Both the position numbers and the translations under genes were made by a program. A DNA stretch of 50,020 nt from a virus (lineage: Duplodnaviria; Caudoviricetes). Shown in pieces: positions 3,101-46,000 of the stretch (position 1 is the first letter of the stretch; each line of letters opens with the position of its first letter). Location: IMG/VR virus record IMGVR_UViG_3300033144_003463, positions 1 through 50,020 of that record, one strand, 5' to 3'. The notes under the pieces were generated by a model. The model saw only the letters and a list, made by a program, of their open reading frames with translations. It made no database searches and was not told where the DNA came from.

Positions 3101-4709
3101 TTCTAGGGACTGGAATGCATTAGAGGCCGGAGTAGTCAATCATCTAAGGCATTCTATTAGAAAATATTACAGAGAAAAGGCCAGACAAGAAGCATATGAG
3201 GTTATTGACAAGCTTGATGTAGATAAATATCCAGAATCAGGCGTATTGGGTAGAGAATATATAGAAAATTTCTTCTATTCTAGCCCAGACGAATTTTATG
3301 TTATAAGAAAAGGGATATATCTATGGTATCTGGCACTAAAAACTAGTTTCCTTGTACAAAATGTAACTCAGCCGCTTTTGACACAACTACCAGCAACCGC
3401 CAACTATACGAACATGGCGAACACAGTAAAGATATTCGGCCATTCCGCGCTAAGCTCTATGAGATATATAGGGCAAAGGCTATCTGGAAAAGCCCCGAAG
3501 AAAGGTGATCCAATGCTTTGGAGACTATGTGATAAGGCTGTTGATGAGATGGTAATAAGTGGAACAATGAATAAGTTTATTTTAAGCGATCCTACTAAGA
3601 AAGATGATAAGGTCGCCAAGGGTCTTGGATTTTTTGCAACTGTTAGTGAGTATTGGAATAGGACATGGGCCGCATGTAATGCTTTTGAAATCGCAAGAGA
3701 TATTCTTGGCTATGGCGAAATGGAAACGTATAAGTTCATGGTCGAGTTTATCGAGAACACTCACTTTCCCTATGGAAGGCATGCATTACCAGGATTTATC
3801 GCTAATGCAGGTAAAATGAGGGGGTTAATGAAAACATTCTTTGTCTTTAAAACATGGATGTTCCAATATTTTCATTTTTTCAATCAGAAGGTGGCAAGGG
3901 GAACATTCGGTGCGAAAACATTCGGAGTGAGCTCTTTAATATCTGTTGCAGGCTTAAAGTCTCTCCCATTTATGGCTTTAATAACATATCTCTTTAGGGC
4001 GTTTTTCCAAAAAGATCCAGAAGTGGAGCTTCGCAAGGCACTTGGCCCAGAAAGAGACTGGCTGGCTGATGGCATATTAAACGGAGTGCCCGCGTTGTGG
4101 GGAATGAACACAACCTATTTAATCGGTGTTGGAGATATGGTTTCTCCCAATTTCGATCCGACTGGACAAATATTTGGCCCAGGATATGGATTATTGAGTA
4201 AGTTTAATTATGGTTATAAGTTATATCAAGAAGGTGATTATGATGGCGCAATTGCCAACTGGACCCCATATACATTGAGAAATATCTTAATAGCTAGCGA
4301 GTGGAGTAAGAGGGGCCTTGATTTTCGCGATAAGGTATATATTAAGCCGACAGAGGGAGATGTGTTAATGAAGGCGCTTGGGTTTACTCCACAATCTGTA
4401 GCTAGGCAATATAAAATTAGAGAGGTTGAAACATTTCTTAACAAGAGATATGTAAATCTTCGTAAAAATGTTATCAACGAATCTGCTAGGGGAACCGATG
4501 TGGTAGATATTCGCAATGAATTTGGTGATAAAATCGTCAAACACAACGAACAGGTATATGACTACCTATACATACTTTATCAAACCTCTGATGCTGTAAT
4601 AACAGAGAAAACATGGAATTCTATAGTTAAGTCTTATACGGTTAGCGAAGGAGACTTCGATAGCTTTATAGCGAAAGGTCGTCAAGAAATAATGAAAATA
4701 AAAAGATGA
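1..4709 (+). CDS. Giant virion/DNA-ejection (large polyvalent, PLxRFG-like) protein, C-terminal part; full ORF 48118..49906+1..4709 = 2165 aa
   Basis: Frame is continuous across the junction; HExxH motif (MGHEVGHLFD); YVPRTRSGRY resembles the PLxRFG motif; hydrophobic C-terminal AGLKSLPF segment; last gene of the tail/ejection block. Confidence 0.7.
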   Translation, partial: INQYLAENPYRKELDEMVKAKEFDEGVLEKADRWEMEQVLKDKPAYLNDGHFLSKEEVTDFAKKNNLWFRTSGETGDLIVAKDIDSLNKVLNAIESGNQRDIGIALGYEDVKQPAKATKEEKSGELILEAVELPSQPVLTKKMIQKKVPEISQNFKGGALFVKISKQDFMDIPPEVSTKLKAKPDKFPLMSQKALKEAGVPTEIAKKIGELHGKIDITTDDFTITKKGKKYIVTLPNKVFAEFTPKRVSTGHVTAVRKIRGEEVPLYKPPITKKQFKDFVESNPEFIANPVLKVDEDKRLVFVGKTSSFKINAGALGLHAQNLKKGQEIEVDLESLRDNKKPELRVRKYTDKDVETYALSLEFSEEELKNPKTPEAKAYARAIPDHMTKSKLVGRERLAAVRLAYHAFATSKKTGRLKPKDVAALTGLDTDVVEKIYLEGLGDLVESSRAKGTMTIKKKHFPHMAAVEDAQLGVDWNDLSTVEQNAMRIWSTKNEGLVPGMREDLIKRQSKAKYDTFKMETPITNQIVRDSPRRTYQSKLMLNIKPEAAVEKLRQIAEYIGATVNQRVRINIDNIGSARGVIHVRRDGSFLWQISLKRFDDFVTMGHEVGHLFDIIILRTKGVNSRLAGRVSLSESTEKELMEELKEVAKHAQGFAGARKSDYKNKSELFSDWFQVYLNDYKFAKLAAPAFTRQMERVHPEILKIKGMYAFPEEAVSHKGLPIDRIRAGGLSAMEAMRKVNPEINVDVRKRGLFEARGMRGRVWQLFGMPNWHPELKKVYRVVTDNAVQANSGANIRALRELNIKRIREKVVEARRNDIAEALFTGDDKGVERYHSEKSLKENFLFNEEEIATYNRVVDAIRTGGKYEVKYIKLKIGYAGMTKQQKALADEWIENEANRLGGYVPRTRSGRYAIYAEQKSIKGPPATTFYQQYSRKITDKVHLSGWRGIPDSVVKEGNKLSNMGYEKVEIYDTKNLRDDFIKNIPKLSVSQLEMLAIEAGIDSKNKTVEAIKDYLRKQSYEKHLITRKYVPGYSRDWNALEAGVVNHLRHSIRKYYREKARQEAYEVIDKLDVDKYPESGVLGREYIENFFYSSPDEFYVIRKGIYLWYLALKTSFLVQNVTQPLLTQLPATANYTNMANTVKIFGHSALSSMRYIGQRLSGKAPKKGDPMLWRLCDKAVDEMVISGTMNKFILSDPTKKDDKVAKGLGFFATVSEYWNRTWAACNAFEIARDILGYGEMETYKFMVEFIENTHFPYGRHALPGFIANAGKMRGLMKTFFVFKTWMFQYFHFFNQKVARGTFGAKTFGVSSLISVAGLKSLPFMALITYLFRAFFQKDPEVELRKALGPERDWLADGILNGVPALWGMNTTYLIGVGDMVSPNFDPTGQIFGPGYGLLSKFNYGYKLYQEGDYDGAIANWTPYTLRNILIASEWSKRGLDFRDKVYIKPTEGDVLMKALGFTPQSVARQYKIREVETFLNKRYVNLRKNVINESARGTDVVDIRNEFGDKIVKHNEQVYDYLYILYQTSDAVITEKTWNSIVKSYTVSEGDFDSFIAKGRQEIMKIKR

Positions 4710-4921
4710 ACGACATCGAAAACAAAAGATTCGAAAATATAGATAAGCATATAGCTGTGCTTAATAGTGAAATGGGCGGAGTTCAAGAGGATGTGGGTGA
4801 AATTAAGGTTGATTTAGCCGTAGTAAAAACGGATGTAAATTGGCTAAAAAGGTTCTTTTTTATCGTCGCTACGGCCTCTATTGGCAGCCTTTTGGCTACT
4901 TTATTTAGCATACTTGGTTAA
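4706..4921 (+). CDS. Small membrane protein, XhlA/holin-like
   Basis: Coiled coil plus one C-terminal TM (FFFIVATASIGSLLATLFSILG); upstream of the endolysin. Confidence 0.55.
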   Translation: MNDIENKRFENIDKHIAVLNSEMGGVQEDVGEIKVDLAVVKTDVNWLKRFFFIVATASIGSLLATLFSILG

Positions 4922-4923
4922 AC

Positions 4924-4952
4924 TTGCATTTTTCCCTAAAGTGTGCTATACT
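4924..4952 (+). promoter_or_regulatory. Sigma70-type promoter with extended -10
   Basis: TTGCAT-17 nt-TATACT with TG extension; near-identical to the 7915 promoter. Confidence 0.75.
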
Positions 4953-5038
4953 GGAAACATATAATTAACAACATATATATGAAAACTAAGGCGGCAAATA
5001 GTTCTTTTACAACCCAAATAGGGAAGGAGATGATGGAA

Positions 5039-5959: not shown

Positions 5960-5960
5960 A

Positions 5961-6409: not shown

Positions 6410-6418
6410 GAGGTTAGA

Positions 6419-6760: not shown

Positions 6761-7273
6761 ATGATAAAACTATTAAGAAGGCTAATAGAGCTTTACCAAA
6801 AGCTGTTGAAGCTTAAAAAGGCAGAGTTTAATGAGTTCGCTTTAGTCATAAGGTTGCGCGAATCAAGTGGAAACTATCGAATAGTAAATTCGTTAGGGTT
6901 TCTTGGCGCGTATCAATTCGGAATGGCTCGTCTTTGTGATCTTGGACTTACAAAAAGAATCAACGGAACAAGTGGTTATGCTAATAAAAACTTTGAGTGG
7001 AAGGATGGTTATAGTAAGGAAATATTCTTAGTGAGTCATAGGTTACAAGATAAAACGTTTCGTGCTCATGTGAAAGATTTAATAAAGCAAATCAAGCGAT
7101 CGGTATCAGATGGTATTATAAAAGAGTATACTCTTTCTGGGTTAGTCGCAGGAGCCCATCTAGGGGGTATAGGAGGTGTTAAGAAGTTTTTAGAGGGAAA
7201 GGATAGGGAAGACGCATATGGAACGTCTGTGGGTGATTACATTAAGAGATTTAAGGGTTACAATATTGAATAA
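6761..7273 (+). CDS. Endolysin, lysozyme/transglycosylase-like fold
   Basis: RESSGNY..N..G..GAYQFG catalytic Glu motif; AGAHLGG; next to holin-like genes. Confidence 0.75.
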   Translation: MIKLLRRLIELYQKLLKLKKAEFNEFALVIRLRESSGNYRIVNSLGFLGAYQFGMARLCDLGLTKRINGTSGYANKNFEWKDGYSKEIFLVSHRLQDKTFRAHVKDLIKQIKRSVSDGIIKEYTLSGLVAGAHLGGIGGVKKFLEGKDREDAYGTSVGDYIKRFKGYNIE

Positions 7274-7356
7274 TGGATAACTGGAGATTAAATTCATTAA
7301 ACAATATCGATAAAAAAAGGTACGATAAGAATTATAATTTAATATTTAATAAACAA

Positions 7357-7533
7357 ATGCCAAACGGAGATAAAACAGGGCCTCAAGGAAAAGGTCCATT
7401 AACAGGAAGAGGAATGGGTTCGTGTGGGAGTTTCGTAAAAAGAGGATTCGCATCAATGAAGAACCCATGGGTATGGGCAGCATGGGGTAAAGGTTTAGTT
7501 GCTGGCTTACTTTTAGGCTGGTGGTTACTATAA
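7357..7533 (+). CDS. DUF5320-like peptide with C-terminal TM
   Basis: MPNGDKTGPQGKGPLTGRGMGSC matches the DUF5320 pattern; the ATG at 7357 follows an A-rich leader. Confidence 0.6.
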   Translation: MPNGDKTGPQGKGPLTGRGMGSCGSFVKRGFASMKNPWVWAAWGKGLVAGLLLGWWLL

Positions 7534-7566
7534 AAAGGTCGGATTATAAACCAATAAAATAAAACA

Positions 7567-7892: not shown

Positions 7893-7943
7893 AGTTATCC
7901 ACAGGTGGTTAGACTTGCATTATTTCGTAAAGTGTGCTATACT
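7893..7943 (+). promoter_or_regulatory. DnaA box + sigma70 promoter
   Basis: TTATCCACA 7895-7903; TTGCAT 7915-7920, 17 nt spacer, TATACT 7938-7943. Confidence 0.8.
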
Positions 7944-7968
7944 GGATTTAGATAATTAATAAAAAGGT

Positions 7969-8274: not shown

Positions 8275-8486
8275 ACACCAGAATCATTGCTATATCAACG
8301 ATGCTTAGCTTTGTAAAATATTTGGAAAAATACCCTAAATAGGCCAAAATCGTCCTTTTTGCCCCCCAGAAACGTTGATTTGACAAGGGTAAAAAGTTGT
8401 CCCTACCCATGTATGGTATATATGTACCTTCGATGGAGGGAGGGGCCTAAAAAAACAAAGGTCGGAGTAAAAATAACAACAAAAAA

Positions 8487-20487: not shown

Positions 20488-20541
20488 CGAATAGTTAAAA
20501 AATAAAGGTCGGTCAAAATAATTAACATAATAATAAATAAA

Positions 20542-22876: not shown

Positions 22877-22902
22877 ACAAACATAATAAGTAATAAAAAA
22901 AT

Positions 22903-23067
22903 ATGACTAAAAAAGATTTCAAAGCATTTGATAACCGGCTTGGGGAGTTGATAGAAGAATATGTAGATTGGGATAATAAGTTGTGGAAAACCGATAAATA
23001 CAAAGCAAAGTATTACAAGGTTAGAGATAAGGCAGTCAAGTTGATAGACAAAATTAAGGGGGCATAA
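22903..23067 (+). CDS. 54-aa hypothetical protein (not in track)
   Basis: MTKKDFKAFDNRLGELIEEYVDWDNKLWK.. Confidence 0.55.
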   Translation: MTKKDFKAFDNRLGELIEEYVDWDNKLWKTDKYKAKYYKVRDKAVKLIDKIKGA

Positions 23068-23083
23068 TAAGTAATAAAAAAAT

Positions 23084-24655: not shown

Positions 24656-26107
24656 ATGGAAGAAGGCGCATTAAGCAAAGGTGAAATGGGTACATTTGAA
24701 CTAGTCAAGACTCTATACAAGAATGATGAAGGTAAACCATTTGAGTTAACTACATCACAAGTAGAGTTGTTTGATTTAGTATTCAAGAAGAAGCATAAGA
24801 GATGTCATATAATGACACATACCCAGTATGGCAAGAGTCTAGTTGTAGCATTGGCTGTATTGACAAGAGTCAGTACATTCCCAGAGAAGTGGTGTATTGT
24901 AGCACCTAGCAACAAGAAGGCTGAGATCATAATGGGGTATATCATACAACATGCGTTTGATAATGCCTATACAATGAATAAAATGGAGATAGGCAAGGAA
25001 TCATCAATGGAACGATTAAGAAGAGAAAGAAGCAGTAAGAGGCTAACCTTTAGAATAGGCAAGAGGATAGGTGAGGTATTTGTACTATCAGCAGAAGCAA
25101 GAAGGACCAGTGATGTAGAAGAAGCTTTAATGGGGTTTGGTAGTCCAAACATAGTAGAAGACGAATCAGCATTGATTAAAGACAAGATTCATAGTACAGC
25201 TATGCGTATGCTCGGTGGATATCATGATAACTATCTATTTAAGATTGGTAATCCCTTTAGAAGGAATCATTTCCTTAGAAGCTTTAGAGACGATAAATAC
25301 TATAAGCTAACAGTAGACTGGAAGAAATCTGTAGCAGAAGGAAGAATCAAACAAGACTTCGTTGATGAGATGAGAAAGGAAGCATTCTTTGATGTATTAT
25401 ATGATTGTCAGTTTCCACCAGAAGATTATATAGATGAGAAGGGATGGATGCCTCTATTGAGTGAGAAAGATATACAAATGGCCCAAGAGGAAGGAGACCA
25501 TTTTGGACAAGAGAGAATGGGTATAGACGTAGCCGGTACAGGGAGTAACAATAGTGTTATAGTTAAAAGGTCGGCAGGATATGCAGAGATGCTATTCAAG
25601 AGTGATAGTATAGATCTAATGGACTTTGCTGGTAAGATAATGATAGAATCAAAGAACTTCAATACAGATAGAAGATATATAGATAACATAGGAATAGGAG
25701 CAGGAGTCTATTCAAGATTAAGAGAACAGGGGTTCCGGGTAGTCGGTGCTAACGTAGCCCTAAAAGCTGCGGACTCCCGGTTCTTCAATAAGAGGGCAGA
25801 AGTATACTGGAGGTTAAGAGAATGGATAAAGTCGGGTGGTAAGTTGTCTAAAGATAAGGATTGGAACCAATTATTGTATATAAAGTATAAAGCAGACTCT
25901 AGCGGTAAGTTACAAATAATACCAAAGATAGAACTGTTAAGAGAAGGAAAGGAATCACCAGATGCAGCAGATGCATTGGCACTAACATTCTATGATCCAC
26001 CAAGGTTAAAACTATTAACCGAAGAGGAAAAGAGATTTTATAAGCGCATATTAAGTAAAAAGCGTTCTAAAAAGGATAGAAATCCTAGAAGAATGACAGC
26101 ATATTAA
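24656..26107 (+). CDS. terL: Terminase large subunit
   Basis: Walker A HTQYGKS; Walker B VEDES; IGNP; nuclease motifs GIDVAG and SPDAADALAL. Confidence 0.92.
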   Translation: MEEGALSKGEMGTFELVKTLYKNDEGKPFELTTSQVELFDLVFKKKHKRCHIMTHTQYGKSLVVALAVLTRVSTFPEKWCIVAPSNKKAEIIMGYIIQHAFDNAYTMNKMEIGKESSMERLRRERSSKRLTFRIGKRIGEVFVLSAEARRTSDVEEALMGFGSPNIVEDESALIKDKIHSTAMRMLGGYHDNYLFKIGNPFRRNHFLRSFRDDKYYKLTVDWKKSVAEGRIKQDFVDEMRKEAFFDVLYDCQFPPEDYIDEKGWMPLLSEKDIQMAQEEGDHFGQERMGIDVAGTGSNNSVIVKRSAGYAEMLFKSDSIDLMDFAGKIMIESKNFNTDRRYIDNIGIGAGVYSRLREQGFRVVGANVALKAADSRFFNKRAEVYWRLREWIKSGGKLSKDKDWNQLLYIKYKADSSGKLQIIPKIELLREGKESPDAADALALTFYDPPRLKLLTEEEKRFYKRILSKKRSKKDRNPRRMTAY

Positions 26108-26109
26108 AC

Positions 26110-28107
26110 ATGTTAAATGAAGATATAAACGATCCAGGGTATAAACCATATAAGCCAAATAAACCTAAGAAAAAGGTTATTTCGATGGTTTATGAAGAAG
26201 TAGCAGAAATGGTAGATAGAAGGAATGAAACATATCCGGCGTTTAATGATATAACGCTGAAAGATTATATCGAAGATGGACACAAAAGATTAAACTCATA
26301 TGTATTAGACAAAGATTCATATGATATACCAAAGGAAGATTGGCAGGCAAATGTAGCTTTACCGACGATTAGAAACAAGCAAAAGAGAATGATTGCTGGT
26401 TTTGCATTAGATGTACCAGAATTGGAGGTTAAGGCATATGGTGAAAACAATGATATGGATGTAGATCGTGCAGAAATATCTAAGGCTTTAATCAAAGGCT
26501 CATACCTACAAGAAGAGAATCCTATCTTGGAGAGTTTTTGGGAAGCATGGGGGGCATCAACAGATGGAACAGTCATTAAATATGAAGGGTATCTAAAAAC
26601 CAGATACAAACAGAAGTTCATTAAATCTTATGATATTATAACAGGAGAGGTGGAATTTGATGAAAAGGAGGTAGATGTAGACGATAAATGTATTTCGTTA
26701 CTCTTACCCTTAACAGAGTTATTTATAAAAGACTTCTATGTACATGACATACAAGACCAAACAGCATTGGCATGGGTGAGATATTATGATCAGGGACAGT
26801 TTGATCATGAGTTTAGTAAATACGCAGATGCAAAGTTTGTGCATAAGAAAGTAGAAATCTCAGATATTGATGTAGAGACAGATTTCTTCCAACAGCAAAA
26901 ATGGGGAGATAGAGTTGAAAACAATAAAATTGAAGTAATCCGTTACTACAACAGAATCGAAGACCAATATATCATAGTTGCCAATGGAGTTCTATTATTA
27001 GATGCACCATTGCTTTGGAGAGTCAATGGTAGGAAAGTATATCCATTTGCTAAAAGCATTTGGGAACCATTTGTTAATAAGCACTTCTTTTATGGCAAGT
27101 CCTTCGCAGATATACTGATGGGTGAATATGATGTAATGAATAGTCTATGGAACACAACGATGGATAAAGGAACAAGGAGTTTAATTTCTCCATTGTTAAT
27201 CGGTAGAGTTAATCAAGATGCATTAGATTTGGAAGATGAGATTGTTACATCGTCAACAAAGATATACGTAGAAGATGTCAAGCAAGTAATCCCAATGCCA
27301 ATCAAAGAACCATCACAAGCAGATGTAAAAATGATTGAATTGGTAGCCAAGGGGATTGAAGAGTCTGCGCCATCTATTCCTGATCTAGTAGCAAAGAGAG
27401 ATGCTACGGCAAGAGAGATCGTATTGGCAGAAGAGAAGCTAAAAGAGATTAAATCATTACACAATGAAATGCTTGCAGATCTATGGAGACAGAAGTATTC
27501 TTTAAGGCTAGCAAACATTCAATTGAATTATCCACAGCCACGTAAGATTGTAAACAAAGAAGGTAAAAAGGAATCATTGTATAGAACATTCATTATACCG
27601 AATATGGTTCTTGAGCAGGACACTGGAGAACGTGGAACATTGGCAATCCAATTTAGGAATGTTAAGGGAAAGGCTAAAAAGAAACTACAAGAAGATTTGG
27701 CCGCAGAAGAAGAGATGATGAAAAGCAAGGGAATAAACTATAAGAAGATAATCGTATCAACTAATTATCTGGATAATTATAAGTTCCATATGGTAGTTGT
27801 CCCAGAGACATTATATAAAACATCATTAGCCAAGATGCAAGCGACTATAATAGAAAAGTTAGAGAATATAGCAAAGTACTTCCCACAAGTGTTTGTAATG
27901 AATCAGAAGGAATACTTTGAACAGTTAGCTAAGGCATATGATGATGATCCAAGTGCAGCAGTAGAAAAATTAAATCAAGCGGAGAAGGCGGCAGAACAAC
28001 AGCAAGGAGCACCACAAGGCGGGGGTCAAGGAGCATCACAAGGAGCGCCCCAAACCACAGGTGGAGCGTCAGGAAGTTTAGCCGGAACTCTTCCACCATT
28101 ACAATGA
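26110..28107 (+). CDS. Portal protein
   Basis: 665 aa directly after terL; YPF..FYGKS and TAREI motifs; Q/G-rich tail. Confidence 0.85.
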   Translation: MLNEDINDPGYKPYKPNKPKKKVISMVYEEVAEMVDRRNETYPAFNDITLKDYIEDGHKRLNSYVLDKDSYDIPKEDWQANVALPTIRNKQKRMIAGFALDVPELEVKAYGENNDMDVDRAEISKALIKGSYLQEENPILESFWEAWGASTDGTVIKYEGYLKTRYKQKFIKSYDIITGEVEFDEKEVDVDDKCISLLLPLTELFIKDFYVHDIQDQTALAWVRYYDQGQFDHEFSKYADAKFVHKKVEISDIDVETDFFQQQKWGDRVENNKIEVIRYYNRIEDQYIIVANGVLLLDAPLLWRVNGRKVYPFAKSIWEPFVNKHFFYGKSFADILMGEYDVMNSLWNTTMDKGTRSLISPLLIGRVNQDALDLEDEIVTSSTKIYVEDVKQVIPMPIKEPSQADVKMIELVAKGIEESAPSIPDLVAKRDATAREIVLAEEKLKEIKSLHNEMLADLWRQKYSLRLANIQLNYPQPRKIVNKEGKKESLYRTFIIPNMVLEQDTGERGTLAIQFRNVKGKAKKKLQEDLAAEEEMMKSKGINYKKIIVSTNYLDNYKFHMVVVPETLYKTSLAKMQATIIEKLENIAKYFPQVFVMNQKEYFEQLAKAYDDDPSAAVEKLNQAEKAAEQQQGAPQGGGQGASQGAPQTTGGASGSLAGTLPPLQ

Positions 28108-28409
28108 AACAATTTATTATAAAACTATTATTTCGCTTAATAGATAATAACGATACCTATAGGGATATTGATGATAAGAAAATACAGAAATGGTTAACAA
28201 GACAGCATCAAGACATGGGATTCCGCGAGTATATGAGAAAGCGAGATTTACAGTTATTAAAGACATTGGGATTGGCATTGACACAAGATGATTATAAAAC
28301 AACTTGTGGGCAACGACTAGAACTATTGCGCTTGTTACAAGTTGTAGAACAAGCGAACAAGGTACAATTAAAAAGGTCGGAGCAAATAAAAAAACGTAAT
28401 AAAAAATAA
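28104..28409 (+). CDS. Hypothetical protein (head module)
   Basis: ATGA overlap with the portal gene. Confidence 0.65.
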   Translation: MKQFIIKLLFRLIDNNDTYRDIDDKKIQKWLTRQHQDMGFREYMRKRDLQLLKTLGLALTQDDYKTTCGQRLELLRLLQVVEQANKVQLKRSEQIKKRNKK

Positions 28410-28410
28410 T

Positions 28411-28629
28411 ATGTTTGATAAAACTTATTACGAGAACAAAAGGAATTCTTTAGAGACCAGAATGGTGAAAGTAAAAGATAGATTTATTATGGAACAGGTA
28501 GAGAATGTCAAAAGACTTTTATCTGATCAACAGGAGATCCAGGCAGATTATAATGAAGTGGTAAAGAGAATGCAAGATGATAAAGAATTGGAAGACAAAG
28601 AGAATAAAAAGGGAAAGAAAAAGAAATAA
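28411..28629 (+). CDS. Coiled-coil hypothetical protein
   Basis: 72 aa with K-rich end. Confidence 0.65.
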   Translation: MFDKTYYENKRNSLETRMVKVKDRFIMEQVENVKRLLSDQQEIQADYNEVVKRMQDDKELEDKENKKGKKKK

Positions 28630-28641
28630 AGGTTTGAAAAA

Positions 28642-28796
28642 GGTGGAGTTAACCCATAGGGGTTAGCTTCGCCATTCGGTGAATTAATTTCACTACTTAA
28701 CGGTTGGGGTTTATCCGCCTTTCCCCTGGTTGTTGAGTGGTGAACTTAGTTCATCAGAACTATATAAAGGTCGCCATCTTGGGGTGAATGCCCAAG
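28642..28796 (+). promoter_or_regulatory. Structured intergenic leader before scaffold/capsid genes
   Basis: Three hairpins plus AAAGGTCG. Confidence 0.5.
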
Positions 28797-28821
28797 TCCA
28801 AATAATTAACATTTTAAAAAC

Positions 28822-29523
28822 ATGGCAGACGAAAAAACATTAGGCTTAAACACAGGAGAAGCAGAAACTCCTGCTGGTGATGGCCAACCAGAACAAAAAA
28901 CTAAGGAAGTAACATCTCCAGAAGTAGATGCTTTATCTAATGATCTTGATCGATTTATCGGTGAAGATGTAGATGATAAAGGACTTATGGAAATAGGAGA
29001 TGATGACGAAACACTTGTTATTTCCAAAACTAAGTTAGAGAAATTGCAAAAGGATCGGGACAACTATCGTGAAGGTTTAAAATCCGTGAAGGGAAAGTTA
29101 AAAGATTTCAAGAAACAGGATAAACCAGAAGATAAACCCAAACCAAAGCAACAGCCGAAGGGTGACTTTCTTAAACGGTCAGACTACTATAAGGCCATAG
29201 AGAAACAAGCTATTAGTACTGCGTGTCTAGATGAATCGTTGGAAAAGAATTGGAGTGAGATTATTCCATTCTATTCTCCAAGGCGAGGAATTGAGACAGT
29301 AGACGATATTGTTGCTGATTTAAAGGATGCACAACATCTTTTCAATAAGAACAATCCGACTGAAACTGAAGAGGACCCAGGAGTTCTCTCTGATCTTTCA
29401 GCCGATAATGCCAAACAAGTAGGCGCCTCTACTAGTGGAGATAAACAAAAGAAACGAAAGCATATTCTTCCTAGAAGAACACCCGTACAAGAATGGTACG
29501 GTAAAGTCGAAGAAAAAAAATAA
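28822..29523 (+). CDS. Capsid scaffolding protein (probable)
   Basis: Acidic N-terminus and coiled coil; lies between portal and MCP. Confidence 0.65.
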   Translation: MADEKTLGLNTGEAETPAGDGQPEQKTKEVTSPEVDALSNDLDRFIGEDVDDKGLMEIGDDDETLVISKTKLEKLQKDRDNYREGLKSVKGKLKDFKKQDKPEDKPKPKQQPKGDFLKRSDYYKAIEKQAISTACLDESLEKNWSEIIPFYSPRRGIETVDDIVADLKDAQHLFNKNNPTETEEDPGVLSDLSADNAKQVGASTSGDKQKKRKHILPRRTPVQEWYGKVEEKK

Positions 29524-29536
29524 TTACGAATTGAAA

Positions 29537-29938
29537 ATGTTTAAACCAAAACAATACGACGACGGCCAATTGGTCACATTATTGTGTGCCAGTGGTGTTA
29601 CTATAACAAAGTATGACGCTTTAGATTTCTCTAGTGGATACGTTCAGCGTGCAACTGATGCTACCACTCAGGTAAAATTTGTTGCCATGGAGGATGTTAC
29701 TGCTGCGACTGAAGGAGACGAAATTCTTTGTCTTAGTACCAAAGGAGTTAGATTTGTTGCAGATTGTACAACTGCCACCACTCAAGCCACGATGGGGACA
29801 TGTGTAGATCTCACAGATCATCTTACCATCGACGAGGATGCCGCAAGCACAGATTATGTGTTTGAAATGGAATCCATCCAAGGGGCTGTTGCAGACAAAA
29901 AGATTGTTGGATATTTTCATCAAGCCGTTAGCGCTTAA
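29537..29938 (+). CDS. Capsid decoration/cement-like protein
   Basis: Small A/T/D-rich beta protein directly before the MCP. Confidence 0.55.
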   Translation: MFKPKQYDDGQLVTLLCASGVTITKYDALDFSSGYVQRATDATTQVKFVAMEDVTAATEGDEILCLSTKGVRFVADCTTATTQATMGTCVDLTDHLTIDEDAASTDYVFEMESIQGAVADKKIVGYFHQAVSA

Positions 29939-29943
29939 TTACT

Positions 29944-30924
29944 ATGCCTATTTTATCTACAGACTTTGCTTCATTAACAGATGACTTACAGTCTATCTTT
30001 AATGAGGTTGCAAAGAGAAAAATATCAGAAAATGTTGGTTTTAGCGTGTTTGATGTTTTTGATACAAATCGTTTGACCTATGACCATTTAATCCTTCATG
30101 GATTAGCTGGTATTGAAAAGGTTGCTGAAGGACAAGATTTGCCAAAAGTAGGAACTGAAGAGGGTGATACAATCACTTATACTCAGGCTTATTATGGTGC
30201 GATTGTTCCTGTAACCAAAAAGATGAGAAAGTTTGATCTTCACGACCAAATTACAAGCGTCATTAAATCCGTTTCAGGAGATGCTTTTGATAAGGTTGAT
30301 CAGTCTTTAGCTGATGTCTTAATCCATGGCTGGGATGATTCCTATGTCGATGTGTATGGACAGACAGTTTCTTCTTTAGGCCCAGATGCTTTGTGTACAT
30401 TCAACGCTCTTCACAGTAATCCAGTCACTAGTGCCACTTATACCAATATCATAAGTGATGGTGCTGTTTCCAATCCTGCTCTTTCAAGAGCTGCTATCGT
30501 TCATATGATAGCTACAGGATTAAAGCACACCGATCCAAATGGTATTATGAGACCTATTAGATATGATACATTAATTATCTCTCCCGATCTTGCAGATCTA
30601 GCTGATAGAATTTTATATTCTACCTTGCTACCAGGGACTGCTAATAATGATATCAATGCCTTAAAGGGTAAAATATCTAATGTGGTTATATGGCCAAGAT
30701 TGGCTACTGCTGCCGACTCTACTGATGGTTCTTCGTACTGGTATCTAGCAGATTCTAGTGGATTGAAAGAATCATTGAAGTGCCTATTCGCCGAGAGACC
30801 TTCTTTGGATGCGCCAAATGAAGTATACTCGAATAAGAATTGGGAATATTCAATTGATTTCTTCTATGCATTAGGTCGCGGATTCCCAGCATATGTTGCT
30901 GGATCAGACGGGACTGGAAGTTAA
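29944..30924 (+). CDS. Major capsid protein (HK97 fold, probable)
   Basis: 326 aa; VAEGQDLP, VTKKMRKFD and LIISPDL motifs; position in the head module. Confidence 0.85.
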   Translation: MPILSTDFASLTDDLQSIFNEVAKRKISENVGFSVFDVFDTNRLTYDHLILHGLAGIEKVAEGQDLPKVGTEEGDTITYTQAYYGAIVPVTKKMRKFDLHDQITSVIKSVSGDAFDKVDQSLADVLIHGWDDSYVDVYGQTVSSLGPDALCTFNALHSNPVTSATYTNIISDGAVSNPALSRAAIVHMIATGLKHTDPNGIMRPIRYDTLIISPDLADLADRILYSTLLPGTANNDINALKGKISNVVIWPRLATAADSTDGSSYWYLADSSGLKESLKCLFAERPSLDAPNEVYSNKNWEYSIDFFYALGRGFPAYVAGSDGTGS

Positions 30925-31030
30925 GAGATCCTTGTACTCACTAAATGATTGGATTCGTTTCTGTCTGAGACATCCAATCATTAGGACAGCGAGTGAGAAA
31001 AGGTCGTTAAATAATTAATATAATAAATAT

Positions 31031-31348
31031 ATGAGCGGTATAAATTGGGCAAAATTAGTTGGGGAAAATCGTGCAAAGGCAATGGGTATTCCTTGGTCTA
31101 AAGAAGAATTAGATGCTATTCATAATAAGGGCATCAGTGTAGAAGATGTAAGAGCTGGTATCTTAAATAAAAAGGAAGTAAAGGAAGCAGACAAGAAAGA
31201 GAAGGAAGATGGTCCAGACTTAGCAAGAATGAAAAAGTCTGAACTTATAGATATAGCCAAAAAGCTTGGCGTATCATTTATCGAAGAGGACGTTATAAAG
31301 GCAGATCTTATTTTAGAAATTGAAAAAGCAGACAAGAAGGCGTTATAA
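31031..31348 (+). CDS. Hypothetical protein with Rho-N/SAP-like C-terminus
   Basis: LARMKKSELIDIAKKLGV..KADLI. Confidence 0.6.
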   Translation: MSGINWAKLVGENRAKAMGIPWSKEELDAIHNKGISVEDVRAGILNKKEVKEADKKEKEDGPDLARMKKSELIDIAKKLGVSFIEEDVIKADLILEIEKADKKAL

Positions 31349-31428
31349 TTAAAAAAGAAGCGGTAAAAATAGTCGAATGAGTCAACATTAAACCCTAAAT
31401 CGCTTTATCTTTTTTCGCCAAGGTAAAG

Positions 31429-31752
31429 ATGGCAGGTATGCGAAAACAACTACTCAATCTTAAAAAAGGAATATCGACTAAAGCTGAAAGACGTTTTAGT
31501 GAGATCCTGAAAGGGGCTCATATTCCATTTAGGTCGAAAGTAGTTGTAAATGGTCAGGGAGTAGGTTTCATGATTGGAAAATACGCAATAGATATCAATG
31601 GTAATAAACAAAGTGAGAAGAGAAACTTTCTTTTGTTAAATGCCGGATACGTTCCAATTTACTTTTCAGAAGAAGAGACAATGACCCCTGATCAAAAACA
31701 ATTAATTAACAAATTAAAAAAATTATGTATACAAACTTTCCGAACGGAATAA
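31429..31752 (+). CDS. Degenerate DUF559/Vsr-like endonuclease
   Basis: TKAERRF..IPF..VGFMIG.YAIDING; catalytic acidic residues altered. Confidence 0.5.
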   Translation: MAGMRKQLLNLKKGISTKAERRFSEILKGAHIPFRSKVVVNGQGVGFMIGKYAIDINGNKQSEKRNFLLLNAGYVPIYFSEEETMTPDQKQLINKLKKLCIQTFRTE

Positions 31753-32681
31753 CAAGTTTTGGAGTTCCTGTAATGGGTGGCAGTTTGCCAAATACTTTTG
31801 GAACTTATTTTTTCGTGAATTATGCAACGGGTTCAGATGGTAACGATGGGTTGTCATTAGAAGCACCAAAGAAAACCATCGCCGCTGCACTCGCCTTATG
31901 CACCACTAACAAGGATGATGTTATTGTTTTAGATACAACTTCTGGTCACGCTTTATCTGCGATGCTAGATATATCAATCAATAGGGTTCATTTTGTTGGA
32001 GATGTTTATGGCAGAAGGTATGGATCAAGAGCTAGAATTACAATGGGTGTTACAACTGCTGCTACTGATGTATTCGCAGTTAAAAACACTGGTGTTGGTA
32101 ATACATTTACTGGTATTAAATTTGACTCCGGGAATACTCTAACTCAAGCCGTTGCCACAGTAGGCGAAGGTGGCGAATATGCAGTTTATAGGAATTGTGA
32201 GTTTTATAACTCTGGAAAGCAAGCATCTGATACTCACGCCGAAATGGTGTTGAATGGAGATTCAGCTCAATTCTATGGATGCACATTTGGTTCATTGGCA
32301 ACAGCAGTTTCTGGTGACAAGATCAGACCAGCTGTCCTCTTAACCAAAGCAACTGTTGCCGCTGGCAAGGTATCCAGGGATGTCTTGTTTGATGATTGTA
32401 GATTCTGGAAAAAAGCAGGCGGAACTACTACTGCATTTATTAAGGGTGCAGCTACAGATGTAGAGAGGGTTATGGAATTTCATGACTGTCAATTCATAGC
32501 AAATGTATTGGGAAGTGTCCCAGCTGTTGCTATTGATGTTGCTAACTTAACTGTTGGACAGATTATTTTAACTGGCGATACTGCAGCTTTTGAATGCACA
32601 AAGATCGCTACAGCCACGAATGTAATTTCTGGTCTTACCGAAAAGGTTGCTACAGCAACTATTGGAATACAAACTACTTAG
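31725..32681 (+). CDS. Virion protein with pectin-lyase-like beta-helix
   Basis: TNFPNGITSFG N-terminus; GSDGNDGLS..PKKTIAAA; repeated F..C.F. Confidence 0.7.
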   Translation: MYTNFPNGITSFGVPVMGGSLPNTFGTYFFVNYATGSDGNDGLSLEAPKKTIAAALALCTTNKDDVIVLDTTSGHALSAMLDISINRVHFVGDVYGRRYGSRARITMGVTTAATDVFAVKNTGVGNTFTGIKFDSGNTLTQAVATVGEGGEYAVYRNCEFYNSGKQASDTHAEMVLNGDSAQFYGCTFGSLATAVSGDKIRPAVLLTKATVAAGKVSRDVLFDDCRFWKKAGGTTTAFIKGAATDVERVMEFHDCQFIANVLGSVPAVAIDVANLTVGQIILTGDTAAFECTKIATATNVISGLTEKVATATIGIQTT

Positions 32682-44248: not shown

Positions 44249-45929
44249 TTTAACACAACCAACATATAATATATTTGATTTAGGATATGATAGGGATCTT
44301 CTAAAGCCCGATGGGTTTTATGATGCTCCATCAAGGATGCAATCCAATATGGATAGTATGAATCCGATATCTCTTGGAGGTGGTGAAATAATAGGAAATC
44401 TAGAAATAATTGATGGTTATTTACAGTCTGGCAATTTTGTATCAGGATCTACCGGATGGAAATTAACTCCAACAAGTGCCGAAATAAATGTTTCAACAGC
44501 AATCCATTCTTTAGATATTCCGGACACAACGGGCGGAGATTCTTTTCATACAGATTCAGACGGGAATAGTTGGTGGGGATGTAACGTTGCAGACTTCGCT
44601 TCTAATAATGATAATGCCGATGCTTATATTTTAAAAACTGGCGTGGCAAAACTTCAATCCTTAACCGTAGTTGGGGGGGCAATTGACGGAACATCTACTA
44701 TTGGCGGAAGAGCGGCATCAATTATAGCCTCAGCTATAGATGCTTCTGGACATTTCGCAGATGATGCCATAAACACGGCCGCTGGAACAATTTTAGGAGA
44801 ATTTGCATTCAGCGGTTCTGGGGCAATACAAATAGGAGAATATGTAAATGGAGTTACTGGAGATTTGAAACTAAGCCCATCTGGAATTTTAGCAAGAAAT
44901 TCTGCTGGTGATACTACGTTTTCTATTAACGGAAATACTGGAGTAGCTGTATTGAACGGCTTAGTTGTAGGAACGAATGTAGGATTGGGAACAGCAGAAG
45001 ATAGTGCTGGGGTTACTGCAATTGTAGGAAATACCGTAACAACGGCTTATGTTAATGCGTTAGATGTTAATGCGGCCACTGTGTCAGCGAGTATATCTAT
45101 CACAACTCCAGCTATTACTGGTGGGACTATTCAAACTGCTGCTGGAACTGGTCAAAGGATTTTAATGAGTGGCAGCGACAATACATTGGCCTTTTATAAT
45201 GGAAGCAATGAGGTCGTTACTCAACTTGGTGGTGGAACTAACATCGGAAATGCAATAAGAATAATACTTGATACTTCTACCATGGCTGGGATGAGGATTG
45301 ATTCTGATGTTGACGCAACGGCAGGCATTCAGATTGTTAATGGTGGAGCTGTTACAATGAATGGACTTGCAGTTTCAATGACGAATGCTGGTGCAGGGAA
45401 TGATGGATATGGAATGCTTATTGACCATAGGGGAACTAGTTCTGGAAAGGGATTAGAGATAATTCGTTCAAATGGTAGCGGCAATTCTATTGATATTACT
45501 CACAGCACAACTGGTTCTGCAATATCAATTTCTAATGATGCAAATTCTGCTGCAATAGATATAATCCATAGTGGAACTGGTAATGCTTCCAATGCGATTA
45601 AAATAGATTCTTCTGAATCAACTGCAATCAGTGCATTAGATATTAGTTATGGTTCTGCATATAGTGACCAGTATGCAGGGAAATTTGCTCGTTCTGGCGG
45701 AGAATCTGTTCTTTTCCTTAGCCATACTGCTGATGCTAGTGGCACAAGACGAGCTGGCATTGAGCTGGATATTGGTGATACGACTGGAACTGGTGCAGTT
45801 GCTGCAGCATTTATATTTAATGGCAAAGAGGTTGCTACTGGAGCTGTGGGCGGTAATCAAGACAGGGTGTTGAGGGTATATGTTGGAGGCACTGTTTACT
45901 ACATACCATTACATACAACATATTCATAA
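44238..45929 (+). CDS. Tail fibre/spike-like protein
   Basis: LQSGNFVSGSTGWK; G/A/T-rich beta repeats; C-terminal VYYIPL. Confidence 0.7.
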   Translation: MMTSLTQPTYNIFDLGYDRDLLKPDGFYDAPSRMQSNMDSMNPISLGGGEIIGNLEIIDGYLQSGNFVSGSTGWKLTPTSAEINVSTAIHSLDIPDTTGGDSFHTDSDGNSWWGCNVADFASNNDNADAYILKTGVAKLQSLTVVGGAIDGTSTIGGRAASIIASAIDASGHFADDAINTAAGTILGEFAFSGSGAIQIGEYVNGVTGDLKLSPSGILARNSAGDTTFSINGNTGVAVLNGLVVGTNVGLGTAEDSAGVTAIVGNTVTTAYVNALDVNAATVSASISITTPAITGGTIQTAAGTGQRILMSGSDNTLAFYNGSNEVVTQLGGGTNIGNAIRIILDTSTMAGMRIDSDVDATAGIQIVNGGAVTMNGLAVSMTNAGAGNDGYGMLIDHRGTSSGKGLEIIRSNGSGNSIDITHSTTGSAISISNDANSAAIDIIHSGTGNASNAIKIDSSESTAISALDISYGSAYSDQYAGKFARSGGESVLFLSHTADASGTRRAGIELDIGDTTGTGAVAAAFIFNGKEVATGAVGGNQDRVLRVYVGGTVYYIPLHTTYS

Positions 45930-46000
45930 AGGATTAAAAAACAATAAAAAAATAGAATTATTAAAAAAATAAAAGGTCGTTATAAATAAAACTAAAAATT

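What the first reader, a model, noticed from the sequence alone, without database searches (positions are those of the whole stretch)
4674..45979. AAAGGTCG octamer at a fixed distance upstream of start codons in an SD-poor genome: candidate novel translation or RNA-processing signal
Seen: AAAGGTCG at 4674, 7534, 8457, 20504, 28372, 28766, 30999 and 45972. The gaps to the next ATG are 24, 25, 22, 30, 31, 48, 24 and 21 nt; the 48-nt gap contains a 19-nt hairpin, so it is about 29 nt effectively. The spacers are A/T-rich and have no SD. Two copies lie inside the upstream CDS (4674, 28372), which suggests they are selected for. The only other copy I found by eye (25566, inside terL) lacks this geometry. 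Inference: a non-SD ribosome-recruitment or standby element, an RNA-binding-protein site, or an RNase site in a host that does not use SD pairing.
Basis: partly seen in the sequence, partly recalled or inferred. Interest (0 to 1): 0.8.

Follow-up and report, generated by a model that had tools for sequence, protein, structure and literature searches.

The report
Shared host–phage 5′-leader expression signal
A strictly conserved eight-letter word sits just upstream of selected genes in this phage, in its relatives, and in their tiny Patescibacteria hosts, which have lost the usual ribosome-binding system; it is most likely a new kind of RNA signal that helps these genes get expressed.

Summary
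AAAGGTCG occurs 9 times on the + strand and 0 times on the - strand (0.95 expected). Eight of the 9 copies lie 21-48 nt before an ORF's ATG (P about 1e-9).

The motif is not private to this phage:
- It is conserved at orthologous intergenic spots in relatives (78 forward, 15 reverse in 988 kb).
- It is present in a related prophage inside a Ca. Staskawiczbacteria chromosome.
- It is used by the hosts themselves, before type IV pilin genes (24 of 58), atpE (5 of 15) and others.

The host family has few SD sequences, and its 16S tails lack the anti-SD.

In host genes, sigma-70-type promoters lie 1-53 nt upstream of the motif, sometimes with a hairpin in between. The motif is therefore transcribed and is a 5'-leader RNA element, not a core promoter box.

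Natural variants keep at least 5 contiguous letters of GGTCGAC. That sequence is complementary to the invariant apical loop of 16S helix 26 (UGUCGACC). The same-sense element also follows the 16S gene in 18 of 37 Patescibacteria, with apparent co-variation.

Best reading: a ribosome-docking or mRNA-protecting leader element that the phage has co-opted. A protein or RNase site, or an alternative-sigma promoter, is not excluded. No RNA data were available.

The parts
4674..4681 (+). AAAGGTCG, 24 nt before the ATG at 4706 (71-aa ORF). It lies inside the last 36 nt of the giant ORF 3..4709.
7534..7541 (+). AAAGGTCG directly after the stop codon of ORF 7273..7533, 25 nt before the ATG at 7567 (59-aa ORF).
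8457..8464 (+). AAAGGTCG, 22 nt before the ATG at 8487 (250 aa; PD-(D/E)XK/Cas4-like exonuclease, PHROG 298, E = 1e-34).
20504..20511 (+). AAAGGTCG, 30 nt before the ATG at 20542 (71-aa ORF). AAATAATTAA follows it.
28372..28379 (+). AAAGGTCG inside the 3' end of ORF 28104..28409, 31 nt before the ATG at 28411. Relatives carry the motif at the orthologous spot (for example L137:2946, L149:4958, L140:5748).
28766..28773 (+). AAAGGTCG, 48 nt before the ATG at 28822 (233-aa scaffold-like gene). It is separated from AAATAATTAA by the conserved hairpin.
28778..28796 (+). Conserved leader hairpin (CTTGGGG-TGAAT-GCCCAAG). It is present in relatives whether or not they carry the motif.
   Evidence: 6 predicted pairs, 4 with changes on both sides, 11 sequences; for the coordinates
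30999..31006 (+). AAAGGTCG, 24 nt before the ATG at 31031 (105-aa ORF after the major capsid gene). AAATAATTAA follows it.
45972..45979 (+). AAAGGTCG, 21 nt before the ATG at 46001 (365-aa ORF).
29503..29510 (+). Variant AAAGTCGA, 26 nt before the ATG at 29537 (MFKPKQYD... gene). Eight relatives have the exact AAAGGTCG at this orthologous spot; ten relatives there, plus L151 further upstream in the coding sequence, have other (G)GTCGA forms.
31369..31376 (+). Variant ATAGTCGA, 52 nt before the ATG at 31429. Several relatives carry AAAGGTCG followed by the same ...AACCCT.A...CCAAG leader at this spot.
25566..25573 (+). AAAGGTCG inside the terL coding sequence with no ORF start downstream. Probably a chance copy with no signal function.

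Best explanation
AAAGGTCG is a host-type cis element of a subset of Patescibacteria (Parcubacteria-like lineages whose 16S rRNA has lost the anti-SD). This phage clade has adopted it.

Where it sits: the motif is transcribed as part of the 5' leader. In the phage it usually lies directly behind the stop codon of the preceding gene, 20-32 nt before the next AUG. In host genes it lies within the first few to about 40 nt of the mRNA.

What I think it does (inferred): it acts on the RNA to raise expression of the downstream ORF by docking the small ribosomal subunit. The core GGUCG(A) would pair with the apical loop of 16S helix 26 (UGUCGACC), which lies near the mRNA exit side of the platform. 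That pairing would serve as a standby or recruitment site, and possibly as a 5' protecting site, in ribosomes that cannot use SD pairing.

Shown:
- The motif is real and conserved.
- Host and phage share it.
- It lies downstream of promoters.
- Its variants keep the part complementary to the h26 loop.

Inferred: that it binds the ribosome, and that binding enhances translation or stability.
For: (1) Non-random and conserved.
- 9 copies on + and 0 on - against 0.95 expected.
- 78 forward and 15 reverse copies in 80 related loci totalling 988,296 bp, at orthologous intergenic spots.
- Complete or near-complete relatives: 7/0, 8/0 and 11/0. The prophage has 5 forward copies and 1 reverse.

(2) The hosts use it.
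- In 300 kb of host chromosome, 7 of 13 copies sit 18-65 nt before the first ATG of an ORF. For the 1119 permuted words the figure is 532 of 7305. P = 1.3e-5.
- It precedes 24 of 58 pilin-like ORFs in 30 loci from 30 genomes.
- It precedes atpE in 5 of 15 genomes.
- Single examples are FtsZ, Ndk and a KH-domain protein (the names rest on my reading of the N-terminal sequences).

(3) It is transcribed rather than being a core promoter box.
- 9 of 26 host sites have a sigma-70-type match upstream.
- The end of the -10 box lies 1, 3, 13, 16, 16, 26, 37, 42 or 53 nt before the motif. Four of these matches score 11-12 of 12 (the sequences are).
- In 3 sites a hairpin lies between promoter and motif.
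- In the phage, promoter-like matches are no commoner than in shuffles: 54 against 48 +/- 7.3, and 18 against 15.2 +/- 3.7.

(4) Geometry.
- Phage gaps are 20-32 nt in 40 of 58 sites.
- The upstream stop codon starts 1-3 nt before the motif in 18 of 46 sites.

(5) Link to SD-less ribosomes.
- Host ORFs have an SD core in 3-10% of cases.
- 7 resolved 16S tails of the family lack CCTCC. This loss is published for about half of Parcubacteria, with h26 noted as highly conserved there (PMC9297842, passages read).
- In a sample of 151 genomes of the phylum, the strict pattern is concentrated in G001 (8 against 0 control), G097 (5 against 1; its tail also lacks the anti-SD) and G107 (3 against 0).

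(6) Candidate partner.
- All 11 bacterial 16S genes of the family have the h26 loop UGUCGACC on a stem that co-varies.
- The predicted duplex with the motif is -7.3 kcal/mol; 5% of permuted words do as well.
- Variants slide along the complement: AAAGTCGA (window 29503, L210, atpE in L288), GGTCGAC (pilin in L376, L387, L388) and GGTCGACA (L135, L208).
- In the phage set, the share of copies that sit in the geometry is 11-19% for GGTCGN and 14% for AGTCGA. It is 4-7% for AGTCG[CGT] and 0-6% for the other classes.

(7) The loop appears to be a real pairing site.
- 18 of 37 Patescibacteria 16S genes have a same-sense GGTCG/GTCGA element within 70 nt after the 16S end. The background is 153 of 2752 windows. 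P = 1.6e-13.
- It is not part of a leader-trailer stem.
- In G113 the loop is AUAGAUC and the trailer carries GAUCUAU. Each occurs only once in sense orientation in 4.5 kb.
- G145 (UCGACU with AGUCGA) and G198 (UCAAAUC with GAUUUGA) fit more weakly.
Against: - No RNA data: neither the transcript ends nor any effect on translation has been observed.
- The h26 complement covers only 5-6 of the 8 conserved letters. The invariant AAA is unexplained.
- Position 9 is A in 19 of the 21 pilin sites whose ninth base was printed, but in 0 of the 8 window sites and in only 30% of phage sites.
- CGACC occurs about 3 times per 16S, and I picked out the loop match after the fact.
- The UCGACC loop is also present in at least 18 SD-using Patescibacteria genomes that show no use of the motif.
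- The words predicted for genomes with variant loops were not enriched: G099 gave 12 against 12 control, and G170/G146 gave 3 against 2.
- The trailers of G170, G146 and G099 show no complement to their variant loops (read by eye).
- Before host pilin genes the gap to the ATG ranges from 13 to 87 nt. That pattern fits an element tied to the 5' end of the mRNA better than one read at a fixed ribosomal distance.
- The major capsid gene itself (29944) has no motif.
- Genomes that use the motif have extra small sigma factors: 3, 2 and 4 Sigma70_r2 hits, against 1 and 1 in two non-users. This keeps a promoter reading alive.
Confidence: 0.42

Rival explanations
1. The motif is the binding or cleavage site of a sequence-specific host protein, either an RNA-binding protein or an endoribonuclease. 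That protein would process polycistronic transcripts and the 16S 3' trailer, or protect the new 5' end, so that each downstream ORF gets a short translatable leader.
For: - The 8-mer is strict and one-mismatch forms are not enriched.
- The motif abuts the upstream stop codon in 18 of 46 phage sites.
- A hairpin lies directly upstream of the motif in several phage and host sites. After a cut there, the upstream RNA would end in a protective 3' hairpin.
- A same-sense (U)AGGUCG element follows the 16S gene in 18 of 37 genomes, where 3'-end processing must occur.
- Use of the motif is restricted to certain lineages although the h26 loop is widespread.
Against: - In host single-gene units the motif lies only about 0-15 nt from the predicted transcription start, where cutting would achieve little.
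- In 3 host sites a 5' hairpin precedes the motif within the leader. A cut at the motif would remove that hairpin.
- The trailer element changes together with the h26 loop in G113. That points to RNA-RNA pairing rather than protein recognition.
- No candidate protein was identified. No non-structural protein is shared only by the motif-bearing phages (tblastn).
Confidence: 0.25
2. The motif is a DNA-level promoter element. It would be a single-block -10-like or initiator box read by an alternative (ECF-like) host sigma factor, in the way T4 late promoters or the ComX cin-box work. The phage would use it to drive many internal transcription units.
For: - It is a strict, single-block, strand-specific word before highly expressed single-gene units (pilins) and at 7-11 places along the phage genomes.
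- The distance to the ATG has a lower bound and a long tail, as expected for something tied to the transcript start.
- The motif-using genomes G001, G097 and G107 have 3, 2 and 4 Sigma70_r2 hits, including ORFs of 169-188 aa. The non-users G099 and G113 have 1 each.
- GTCG resembles the CGTC/GTC -10 boxes of ECF sigma factors (recalled, not tested).
Against: - No conserved second block (-35) lies upstream. The position matrix of 56 sites is flat apart from A/T at -4 to -1, and the pilin leaders show none.
- Good sigma-70 promoters lie 1-53 nt upstream, so the motif is inside those transcripts.
- In three host sites a promoter-hairpin-motif order makes a terminator-then-promoter reading unlikely.
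- A G/C-rich core is a poor melting element.
- The sigma-factor count rests on 5 genomes and is confounded by phylogeny.
Confidence: 0.17
3. The motif is a loading site for a transcription antitermination or coupling factor, in the manner of the ops element for RfaH or of boxA for NusB/NusE. It would keep RNA polymerase processive along long operons.
For: - It is a short strict word in leaders of surface-structure genes and along a 50-kb one-directional phage genome.
- There are few sites per host genome: 30 copies outside the prophage, about a third to a half of them in the geometry.
Against: - Only one NusG-family gene was found in each of 5 genomes searched, motif users included.
- The motif is absent from all 11 rRNA leaders of the family. 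Those leaders carry a different conserved block.
Confidence: 0.05

Closest known systems
Shine-Dalgarno / anti-SD pairing
   Same: A short purine-rich word upstream of start codons. It is strand-specific and shared by host and phage. Here it may be read by base pairing with 16S rRNA.
   Different: - There is no complement in the 16S 3' tail; the host family's tails are GAUCAUUUUUUU.
- The distance to the AUG is 20-32 nt or more, not 5-10 nt.
- Only a minority of genes use it.
- In one SD-using genome it sits upstream of a normal AGGAGG.
Translational enhancers and standby sites upstream of the ribosome-binding site (T7 gene 10 epsilon, E. coli atpE leader enhancer; recalled, not tested here)
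   Same: A leader element 5' of the ribosome-binding region of strongly expressed genes. Strikingly, it occurs before atpE (c subunit) in 5 of 15 host genomes. Epsilon is thought to pair with an internal 16S segment.
   Different: A different sequence, a different proposed rRNA partner (the h26 loop), and an SD-less background. No functional data exist here.
TURBS of caliciviruses and the HCV IRES IIId loop, both pairing with 18S rRNA helix 26 (recalled)
   Same: The proposed partner is the apical region of helix 26 of the small-subunit rRNA. The element helps ribosomes start on a downstream ORF of a polycistronic viral RNA. The motif often sits at the stop codon of the upstream ORF (18 of 46 sites).
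   Different: Those are eukaryotic systems. TURBS lies 40-80 nt upstream of a stop-start overlap, whereas here the restart codon lies 20-32 nt downstream of the motif. Here the host's own mRNAs use the element as well.
STAB-SD 5' mRNA stabiliser of Bacillus cryIIIA (recalled)
   Same: A ribosome-binding word near the 5' end of an mRNA that need not be at start-codon distance. This would fit the 13-87 nt gaps and the closeness to the promoter in host pilin genes.
   Different: STAB-SD pairs with the anti-SD, which these hosts lack.
Single-block promoters (T4 late TATAAATA, streptococcal cin-box) and RfaH ops / boxA elements (recalled)
   Same: A strict 8-12 nt, orientation-specific word with few copies per genome, shared by phage or plasmid and host.
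   Different: - Promoters lie upstream of the motif at variable distance.
- There is no NusG paralogue.
- The motif is absent from rRNA leaders.

Membership tests
Shine-Dalgarno sequence | Complementary to the 3' tail (anti-SD, CCUCC) of the host 16S rRNA | tested here: not met
   CGACCTTT is absent from all 12 16S genes of the host family that were examined. With G-U pairs allowed, no 8-nt complement was found, only two isolated non-conserved 7-nt hits. 7 resolved tails read GGATCATTTTTTT-like.
Shine-Dalgarno sequence | Lies about 5-10 nt upstream of the start codon | tested here: not met
   The gaps are 21-48 nt in the window and 20-32 nt in 40 of 58 phage sites.
rRNA-pairing leader element (epsilon or TURBS type) | Complementary to an exposed, conserved single-stranded segment of small-subunit rRNA | tested here: inconclusive
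   The core GGUCG(A) is complementary to the h26 loop UGUCGACC in 11 of 11 family 16S genes, at -7.3 kcal/mol, with 5% of permuted words as good. Variants keep at least 5 complementary letters. AAA is unexplained, and there is no compensatory evidence for mRNAs.
rRNA-pairing leader element (epsilon or TURBS type) | Raises translation of the downstream ORF | not testable with these tools
   No RNA or ribosome data. No RNA run was listed.
Core promoter element (alternative sigma, single block) | Fixed register to the transcription start, with no need for another promoter upstream | tested here: not met
   Sigma-70-type matches end 1-53 nt upstream of the motif in 9 of 26 host sites; four of them score 11-12 of 12. 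Transcription starts themselves were not mapped.
ECF-sigma promoter | A conserved -35 (AAC-type) block 16-17 nt upstream of the -10 block | tested here: not met
   The position matrix of 56 sites shows no conserved block upstream. None is seen in the pilin leaders.
RfaH ops-type element | A specialised NusG paralogue is encoded by the organism | tested here: not met
   One PF02357 hit in each of G001, G097, G107, G099 and G113. These genomes are incomplete MAGs.
boxA / nut antitermination element | Present in the leaders of the host rRNA operons | tested here: not met
   0 of 11 16S leaders (400 nt upstream) hold GGTCG or GTCGAC. They share a different block, TTAGTTTTTTAAAGTTGTTTCGAAT.
Known RNA families (Rfam) | A match at gathering score | tested here: not met
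   0 matches in the window.

The most novel reading that the evidence does not exclude
In Parcubacteria-like bacteria that have lost the anti-SD, the apical loop of 16S helix 26 (UGUCGACC) serves as a second mRNA-docking site of the bacterial ribosome. It would pair first with a GGUCGA element in the 16S 3' trailer of the precursor, and after maturation with AAAGGUCG(A) in the leaders of selected abundant-protein mRNAs. Their phages copy this signal to get ribosomes onto internal ORFs of long transcripts. This would be a bacterial counterpart of the helix-26 docking used by eukaryotic viral RNAs.
Probability: 0.3. Interest if true: 0.95.

Novelty: new variant of a known kind. Interest (0 to 1): 0.8.

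Why it matters
How translation starts in the many Patescibacteria whose 16S rRNA lacks the anti-SD is an open question. The paper that reported the loss says the role of their conserved helix 26 is unknown (PMC9297842, passages read).

A strictly conserved leader word, shared by these bacteria and their phages and complementary to that helix's loop, turns the question into concrete experiments: end mapping, binding assays and reporter assays.

The motif is also practical in three ways:
- It marks real gene starts in genomes where SD-based gene callers have little to go on.
- It gives a host-linkage signal for uncultured phages. Motif-bearing and motif-free relatives separate cleanly.
- It could serve as an expression part if these organisms become tractable.

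I found no paper describing the motif. The searches were 'AAAGGTCG' (primers only among the 15 of 560 papers listed), Patescibacteria with anti-Shine-Dalgarno (none), Candidate Phyla Radiation with Shine-Dalgarno, Patescibacteria with ribosome binding site, motif and upstream, and Candidate Phyla Radiation with phage and promoter motif.

Tried and rejected
**Searches that found nothing or could not be run**
- Close relatives by terL alone: none in IMG/VR. Only matches below 31% identity turned up among cultured or deposited phages.
- The portal protein had no match among deposited phages. Relatives were reached only through a portal alignment.
- tRNA scan and Rfam on the window: nothing.
- RNA evidence: no RNA holder was listed for window 26000-32000.

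**Tests that did not support a specific idea**
- Full-length complement of the motif in 16S rRNA: absent. The 6-mer ACCTTT is conserved at about position 570-600 but lies in a helix strand. I did not pursue it.
- A phage-encoded recognition factor: no non-structural protein is shared only by motif-bearing phages (tblastn at 1e-4). Small proteins that evolve fast could have been missed.
- The motif as a -35-like box of leaderless genes: rejected, because a conserved RNA hairpin lies between motif and ATG at 28766 and in its orthologues.
- Co-variation of mRNA motifs with variant h26 loops: AAAGGTCA in G099 gave 12 against 12 control, and AAAGGACC in G170/G146 gave 3 against 2. These are uninformative or negative.
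- ITS GUCGAC present or absent against motif use in 7 family genomes: 10 against 3 control in the five with the element, 1 against 1 in the two without. The numbers are too small.
- NusG paralogue: none. An S1-domain protein is present in users and non-users alike. No motif in rRNA leaders.

**Surveys across the phylum**
- The loose pattern AAAGGTCG-N18-34-ATG is mostly coding noise. For example, all of the 21 hits in G209 were G/C-rich.
- The pattern with an SD inserted gave 40 hits against about 68 control hits (my hand count of the table). There is therefore no general use in SD-using lineages. Only G207 (3 against 0) looks real.
- Motif-free relatives (G045, G047, G050) show no alternative enriched word.

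**Limits**
- A possible extended 16S tail holding GUCGACUU(UU) 16-17 nt beyond the canonical end (L237, L238, L241, G097; duplex -5.1 to -7.7 kcal/mol) is kept only as a lead. The mature 3' ends are unknown.
- The script cap (40) was reached. The trailer-loop comparisons for G113, G145, G198, G170, G146 and G099 were therefore made by eye, and checked only with the DNA search.

Full report
**1. The observation**

AAAGGTCG occurs nine times in the 50,020-bp window, always on the + strand. Dinucleotide-preserving shuffles give 0.95 copies on average.

The gaps to the next ATG are 24, 25, 22, 30, 31, 48, 24 and 21 nt. The ninth copy (25566) lies inside terL.

The window is a complete virus record with 114-bp terminal repeats, and all its genes are on the + strand. 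I therefore used a control that allows for coding-strand bias. Eight of 9 copies lie 18-49 nt before the first ATG of an ORF. For the 1119 permutations of the same letters the figure is 63 of 1153 occurrences (P = 1e-9).

One-mismatch forms as a class are not enriched. The hairpin in the 48-nt gap (28778-28796) is kept in relatives with compensatory changes in 4 of 6 pairs. SD cores are rare: 3 of 55 ORFs have one.

**2. Relatives**

The phage has no close kin among deposited phages. A portal alignment recovered 80 IMG/VR loci.

- In their 988,296 bp the word occurs 78 times forward and 15 times reverse.
- It sits at orthologous intergenic spots, often directly after a stop codon.
- Near-complete relatives have 7/0, 8/0 and 11/0 copies (forward/reverse). 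Others have essentially none, among them one with 56% portal identity.
- Those motif-free relatives have no substitute word either.
- Across 58 phage sites with an A/T-rich spacer, the gap is 20-32 nt in 40. The upstream stop codon starts 1-3 nt before the motif in 18 of the 46 sites where an upstream ORF end could be assigned.
- The flanks carry no second conserved block.

**3. The host**

A scan of species-representative genomes found nine loci. One (portal 41% identical) lies in a 129,872-bp contig of a Ca. Staskawiczbacteria MAG. That contig also holds EF-G, ribosomal proteins L2 and S3, SecY and AlaRS, and has a phage integrase at the far end of the phage-like stretch. It is therefore an integrated prophage.

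The prophage has five forward copies and one reverse. The other contigs were binned to various taxa, which I read as binning noise.

The host's ORFs have an SD core in only 3-10% of cases. Seven 16S genes of its family end in GGATCATTTTTTT-like tails instead of the anti-SD. Four more could not be read at the 3' end, and one looks archaeal. Loss of the anti-SD in about half of Parcubacteria is already published, with the remark that helix 26 is highly conserved there and its role unknown (PMC9297842, passages).

**4. The turn: the host uses the motif too**

Genome-wide the host has no excess of the word: 36 copies in 0.9 Mb, 6 of them in the prophage. But many copies sit in the same geometry as in the phage.

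- In 300 kb of chromosome, 7 of 13 copies lie 18-65 nt before a first ATG, against 7.3% for permuted words (P = 1.3e-5).
- The genes behind them include two type IV pilins, the ATP synthase c subunit, a response regulator and small membrane proteins.
- Across the family, AAAGGTCG precedes atpE in 5 of 15 genomes.
- It precedes 24 of 58 pilin-like ORFs, in 20 of 30 loci.
- In another anti-SD-less genome (G097) it precedes genes that I read as Ndk, a KH-domain protein, a pilin and three copies of a GIY-YIG gene.
- In a sample of 151 genomes of the phylum, a strict pattern (motif, 10-24 nt, eight A/T, NN, ATG) is concentrated in G001 (8 against 0 control), G097 (5 against 1) and G107 (3 against 0). 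The overall count is 41 against 27.
- A pattern with an SD inserted shows no general excess: 40 against about 68 by my hand count. In G207, however, three sites have the motif, then 9-19 nt, then AGGAGG, then ATG.

**5. DNA signal or RNA signal?**

In host genes, recognisable sigma-70 promoters lie upstream of the motif, at variable distance. The end of the -10 box lies 1, 3, 13, 16, 16, 26, 37, 42 or 53 nt before it (9 of 26 sites; four score 11-12 of 12, sequences).

In three sites a hairpin lies between promoter and motif. The pilin leaders show TATAAT boxes 5-24 nt upstream by eye. The motif is therefore inside the transcript, usually near its 5' end.

In the phage, promoter-like matches are at shuffle level and none of the better ones precedes a motif. 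A CPR representative is reported to use ordinary -35/-10 promoters (PMC12641261, passages).

Against a pure translation-geometry reading, the gap to the ATG is 13-87 nt before pilin genes. What remains for a promoter reading is that motif-using genomes have extra small sigma factors. No -35 block exists, however.

An ops-like or boxA-like role is unlikely. There is one NusG gene per genome and no motif in 11 rRNA leaders.

**6. A candidate partner**

The full complement is absent from 16S. The apical loop of helix 26, however, is UGUCGACC in all 11 bacterial 16S genes of the family, on a stem that co-varies. CGACC is complementary to GGUCG.

Taken alone this is weak. The match is 5 nt, CGACC occurs three times per 16S, and 5% of permuted words pair as well. 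Two further observations raise it.

First, natural variants at orthologous sites slide along the complement GGUCGACA rather than changing at random:
- AAAGTCGA occurs in the window at 29503, in L210, and before atpE in L288.
- ATAGTCGA occurs at 31369.
- GGTCGAC occurs before three pilin genes that lack the AAA.
- GGTCGACA occurs in L135 and L208.

In the phage set, GGTCGN and AGTCGA are enriched in the geometry (11-19% and 14%). AGTCG[CGT] (4-7%) and the other classes (0-6%) are not.

Second, a same-sense element, (U)AGGUCG(A), follows the 16S gene within 70 nt in 18 of 37 Patescibacteria. The background is 5.6% (P = 1.6e-13). It is not part of a leader-trailer stem. Where the h26 loop differs, the trailer can differ with it:
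- In G113 the loop is AUAGAUC and the trailer has GAUCUAU. Each occurs once in sense orientation in 4.5 kb.
- G145 and G198 fit more weakly.
- G170, G146 and G099 do not fit (by eye).

The loop thus seems to be a real RNA-pairing site in the precursor, and the mRNA motif has the same sense as its partner.

Against this:
- The AAA is unexplained.
- Position 9 is free in phage sites.
- The loop is also present in lineages that do not use the motif.
- The words predicted for variant loops were not found.

**7. Verdict**

An RNA-level, non-SD leader signal in an SD-less host is the best reading. But it is a host signal that the phage copies, its distance to the ATG is bounded from below rather than fixed, and its proposed rRNA partner is the h26 loop rather than a CGACCUUU segment.

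I put about 0.7 on an RNA-level role in general. Within that, 0.42 goes to the ribosome-docking statement, of which about 0.3 to the specific h26 pairing. A protein or RNase site gets 0.25, a promoter element 0.17 and an antitermination site 0.05.

Everything about function is inference. No transcript ends, binding or expression effects were observed.

Noticed in passing
window, e.g. 7952, 12089, 13543, 18314, 20518, 22060, 22234, 22375, 28802, 31011, 33248, 41127: A second, commoner leader word, ATAATTAA, occurs 21 times on + and 3 times on -. Thirteen intergenic copies lie 16-24 nt before an ATG. Several copies counted as being inside ORFs actually precede better ATG starts (4961, 13303, 14376, 17023). 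In three places it follows AAAGGTCG. It also occurs in host leaders. Its role is unknown; it could be a -10-like box with a very short leader, or an A/U-rich ribosome-binding tract.
   Followed up: partly
loci L237-L243, L297-L326 (16S genes of Patescibacteria genomes): A conserved element (U)AGGUCG(A), or GUCGAC in the anti-SD-less family, lies 8-60 nt after the 16S end in 18 of 37 genomes (background 5.6%). It is complementary to the helix 26 loop and shows apparent co-variation in G113 (AUAGAUC with GAUCUAU). It looks like a pairing between precursor trailer and h26 loop that I have not seen described.
   Followed up: partly
loci L237-L243, L328 (G097), L333 (G214): The 16S 3' tails read GGAUCAUUUUUUU(A) and similar, instead of GGAUCACCUCCUU. 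The CAU plus the U-run are complementary to A-rich leaders that end in AUG. Loss of the anti-SD in Parcubacteria is published (PMC9297842). Possible pairing of the U-rich tail with the A-rich leaders was not examined further.
   Followed up: partly
L211 = G001:C17:80856-102772 (prophage about 80-125.6 kb of a 129,872-bp contig): A relative of this phage is integrated in a Ca. Staskawiczbacteria chromosome next to an integrase (C17:124579-125655). The contig also carries the ribosomal protein operon. This is direct host evidence for an otherwise uncultured phage clade.
   Followed up: yes
window 48118-50019 and 3-4709: A giant ORF runs across the record ends (634 aa plus 1568 aa, minus the 114-bp repeat) and has no Pfam match. 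A 32%-identical counterpart exists in one relative only (G042). Function unknown.
   Followed up: no
window 4941-4955 and 7932-7946: GTGTGCTATACTGGA occurs twice. It contains an extended -10-like TGcTATACT. Each copy lies 5 nt before an ATAATTAA and about 25 nt before an ATG. These are candidate early promoters.
   Followed up: no
window 22882-22902, 23063-23083 (and a similar leader at about 22556): Near-identical leaders, CATAATAAGTAATAAAAAAAT-ATG, precede consecutive small ORFs. AACCCCTAAAC occurs at 13528 and 13779, and AACCCTAAA at 31391. ACCCCT is enriched in leaders, in 5 of its 8 copies.
   Followed up: no
relatives L165:7755, L169:6679, L190:15379, L154:11998, L153:15368, L140:8950; window 31377-31428: Behind the motif upstream of the 31429 orthologue lies a longer conserved leader (...AACCCUCAA.A....CUUU..UUC.CCAAG...). 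It may be a structured RNA. It was neither folded nor modelled.
   Followed up: no
16S leaders in L237-L247: All 11 leaders share TTAGTTT(T/C)TTAAAGTTGTTTCGAAT about 60-110 nt before the 16S gene. By position it is probably a boxA-like antitermination block.
   Followed up: no
G097:C2:2083, C8:497, C22:433 (L360-L362): Three near-identical copies of a GIY-YIG-type gene each carry TATAAT, then AAAGGTCG, then the same leader. A mobile gene appears to travel with the signal.
   Followed up: no
G001, G097, G107 versus G099, G113: Motif-using genomes have 2-4 Sigma70_r2 genes, including ORFs of 169-188 aa. The two non-users searched have one. The sample is small and confounded by phylogeny.
   Followed up: no
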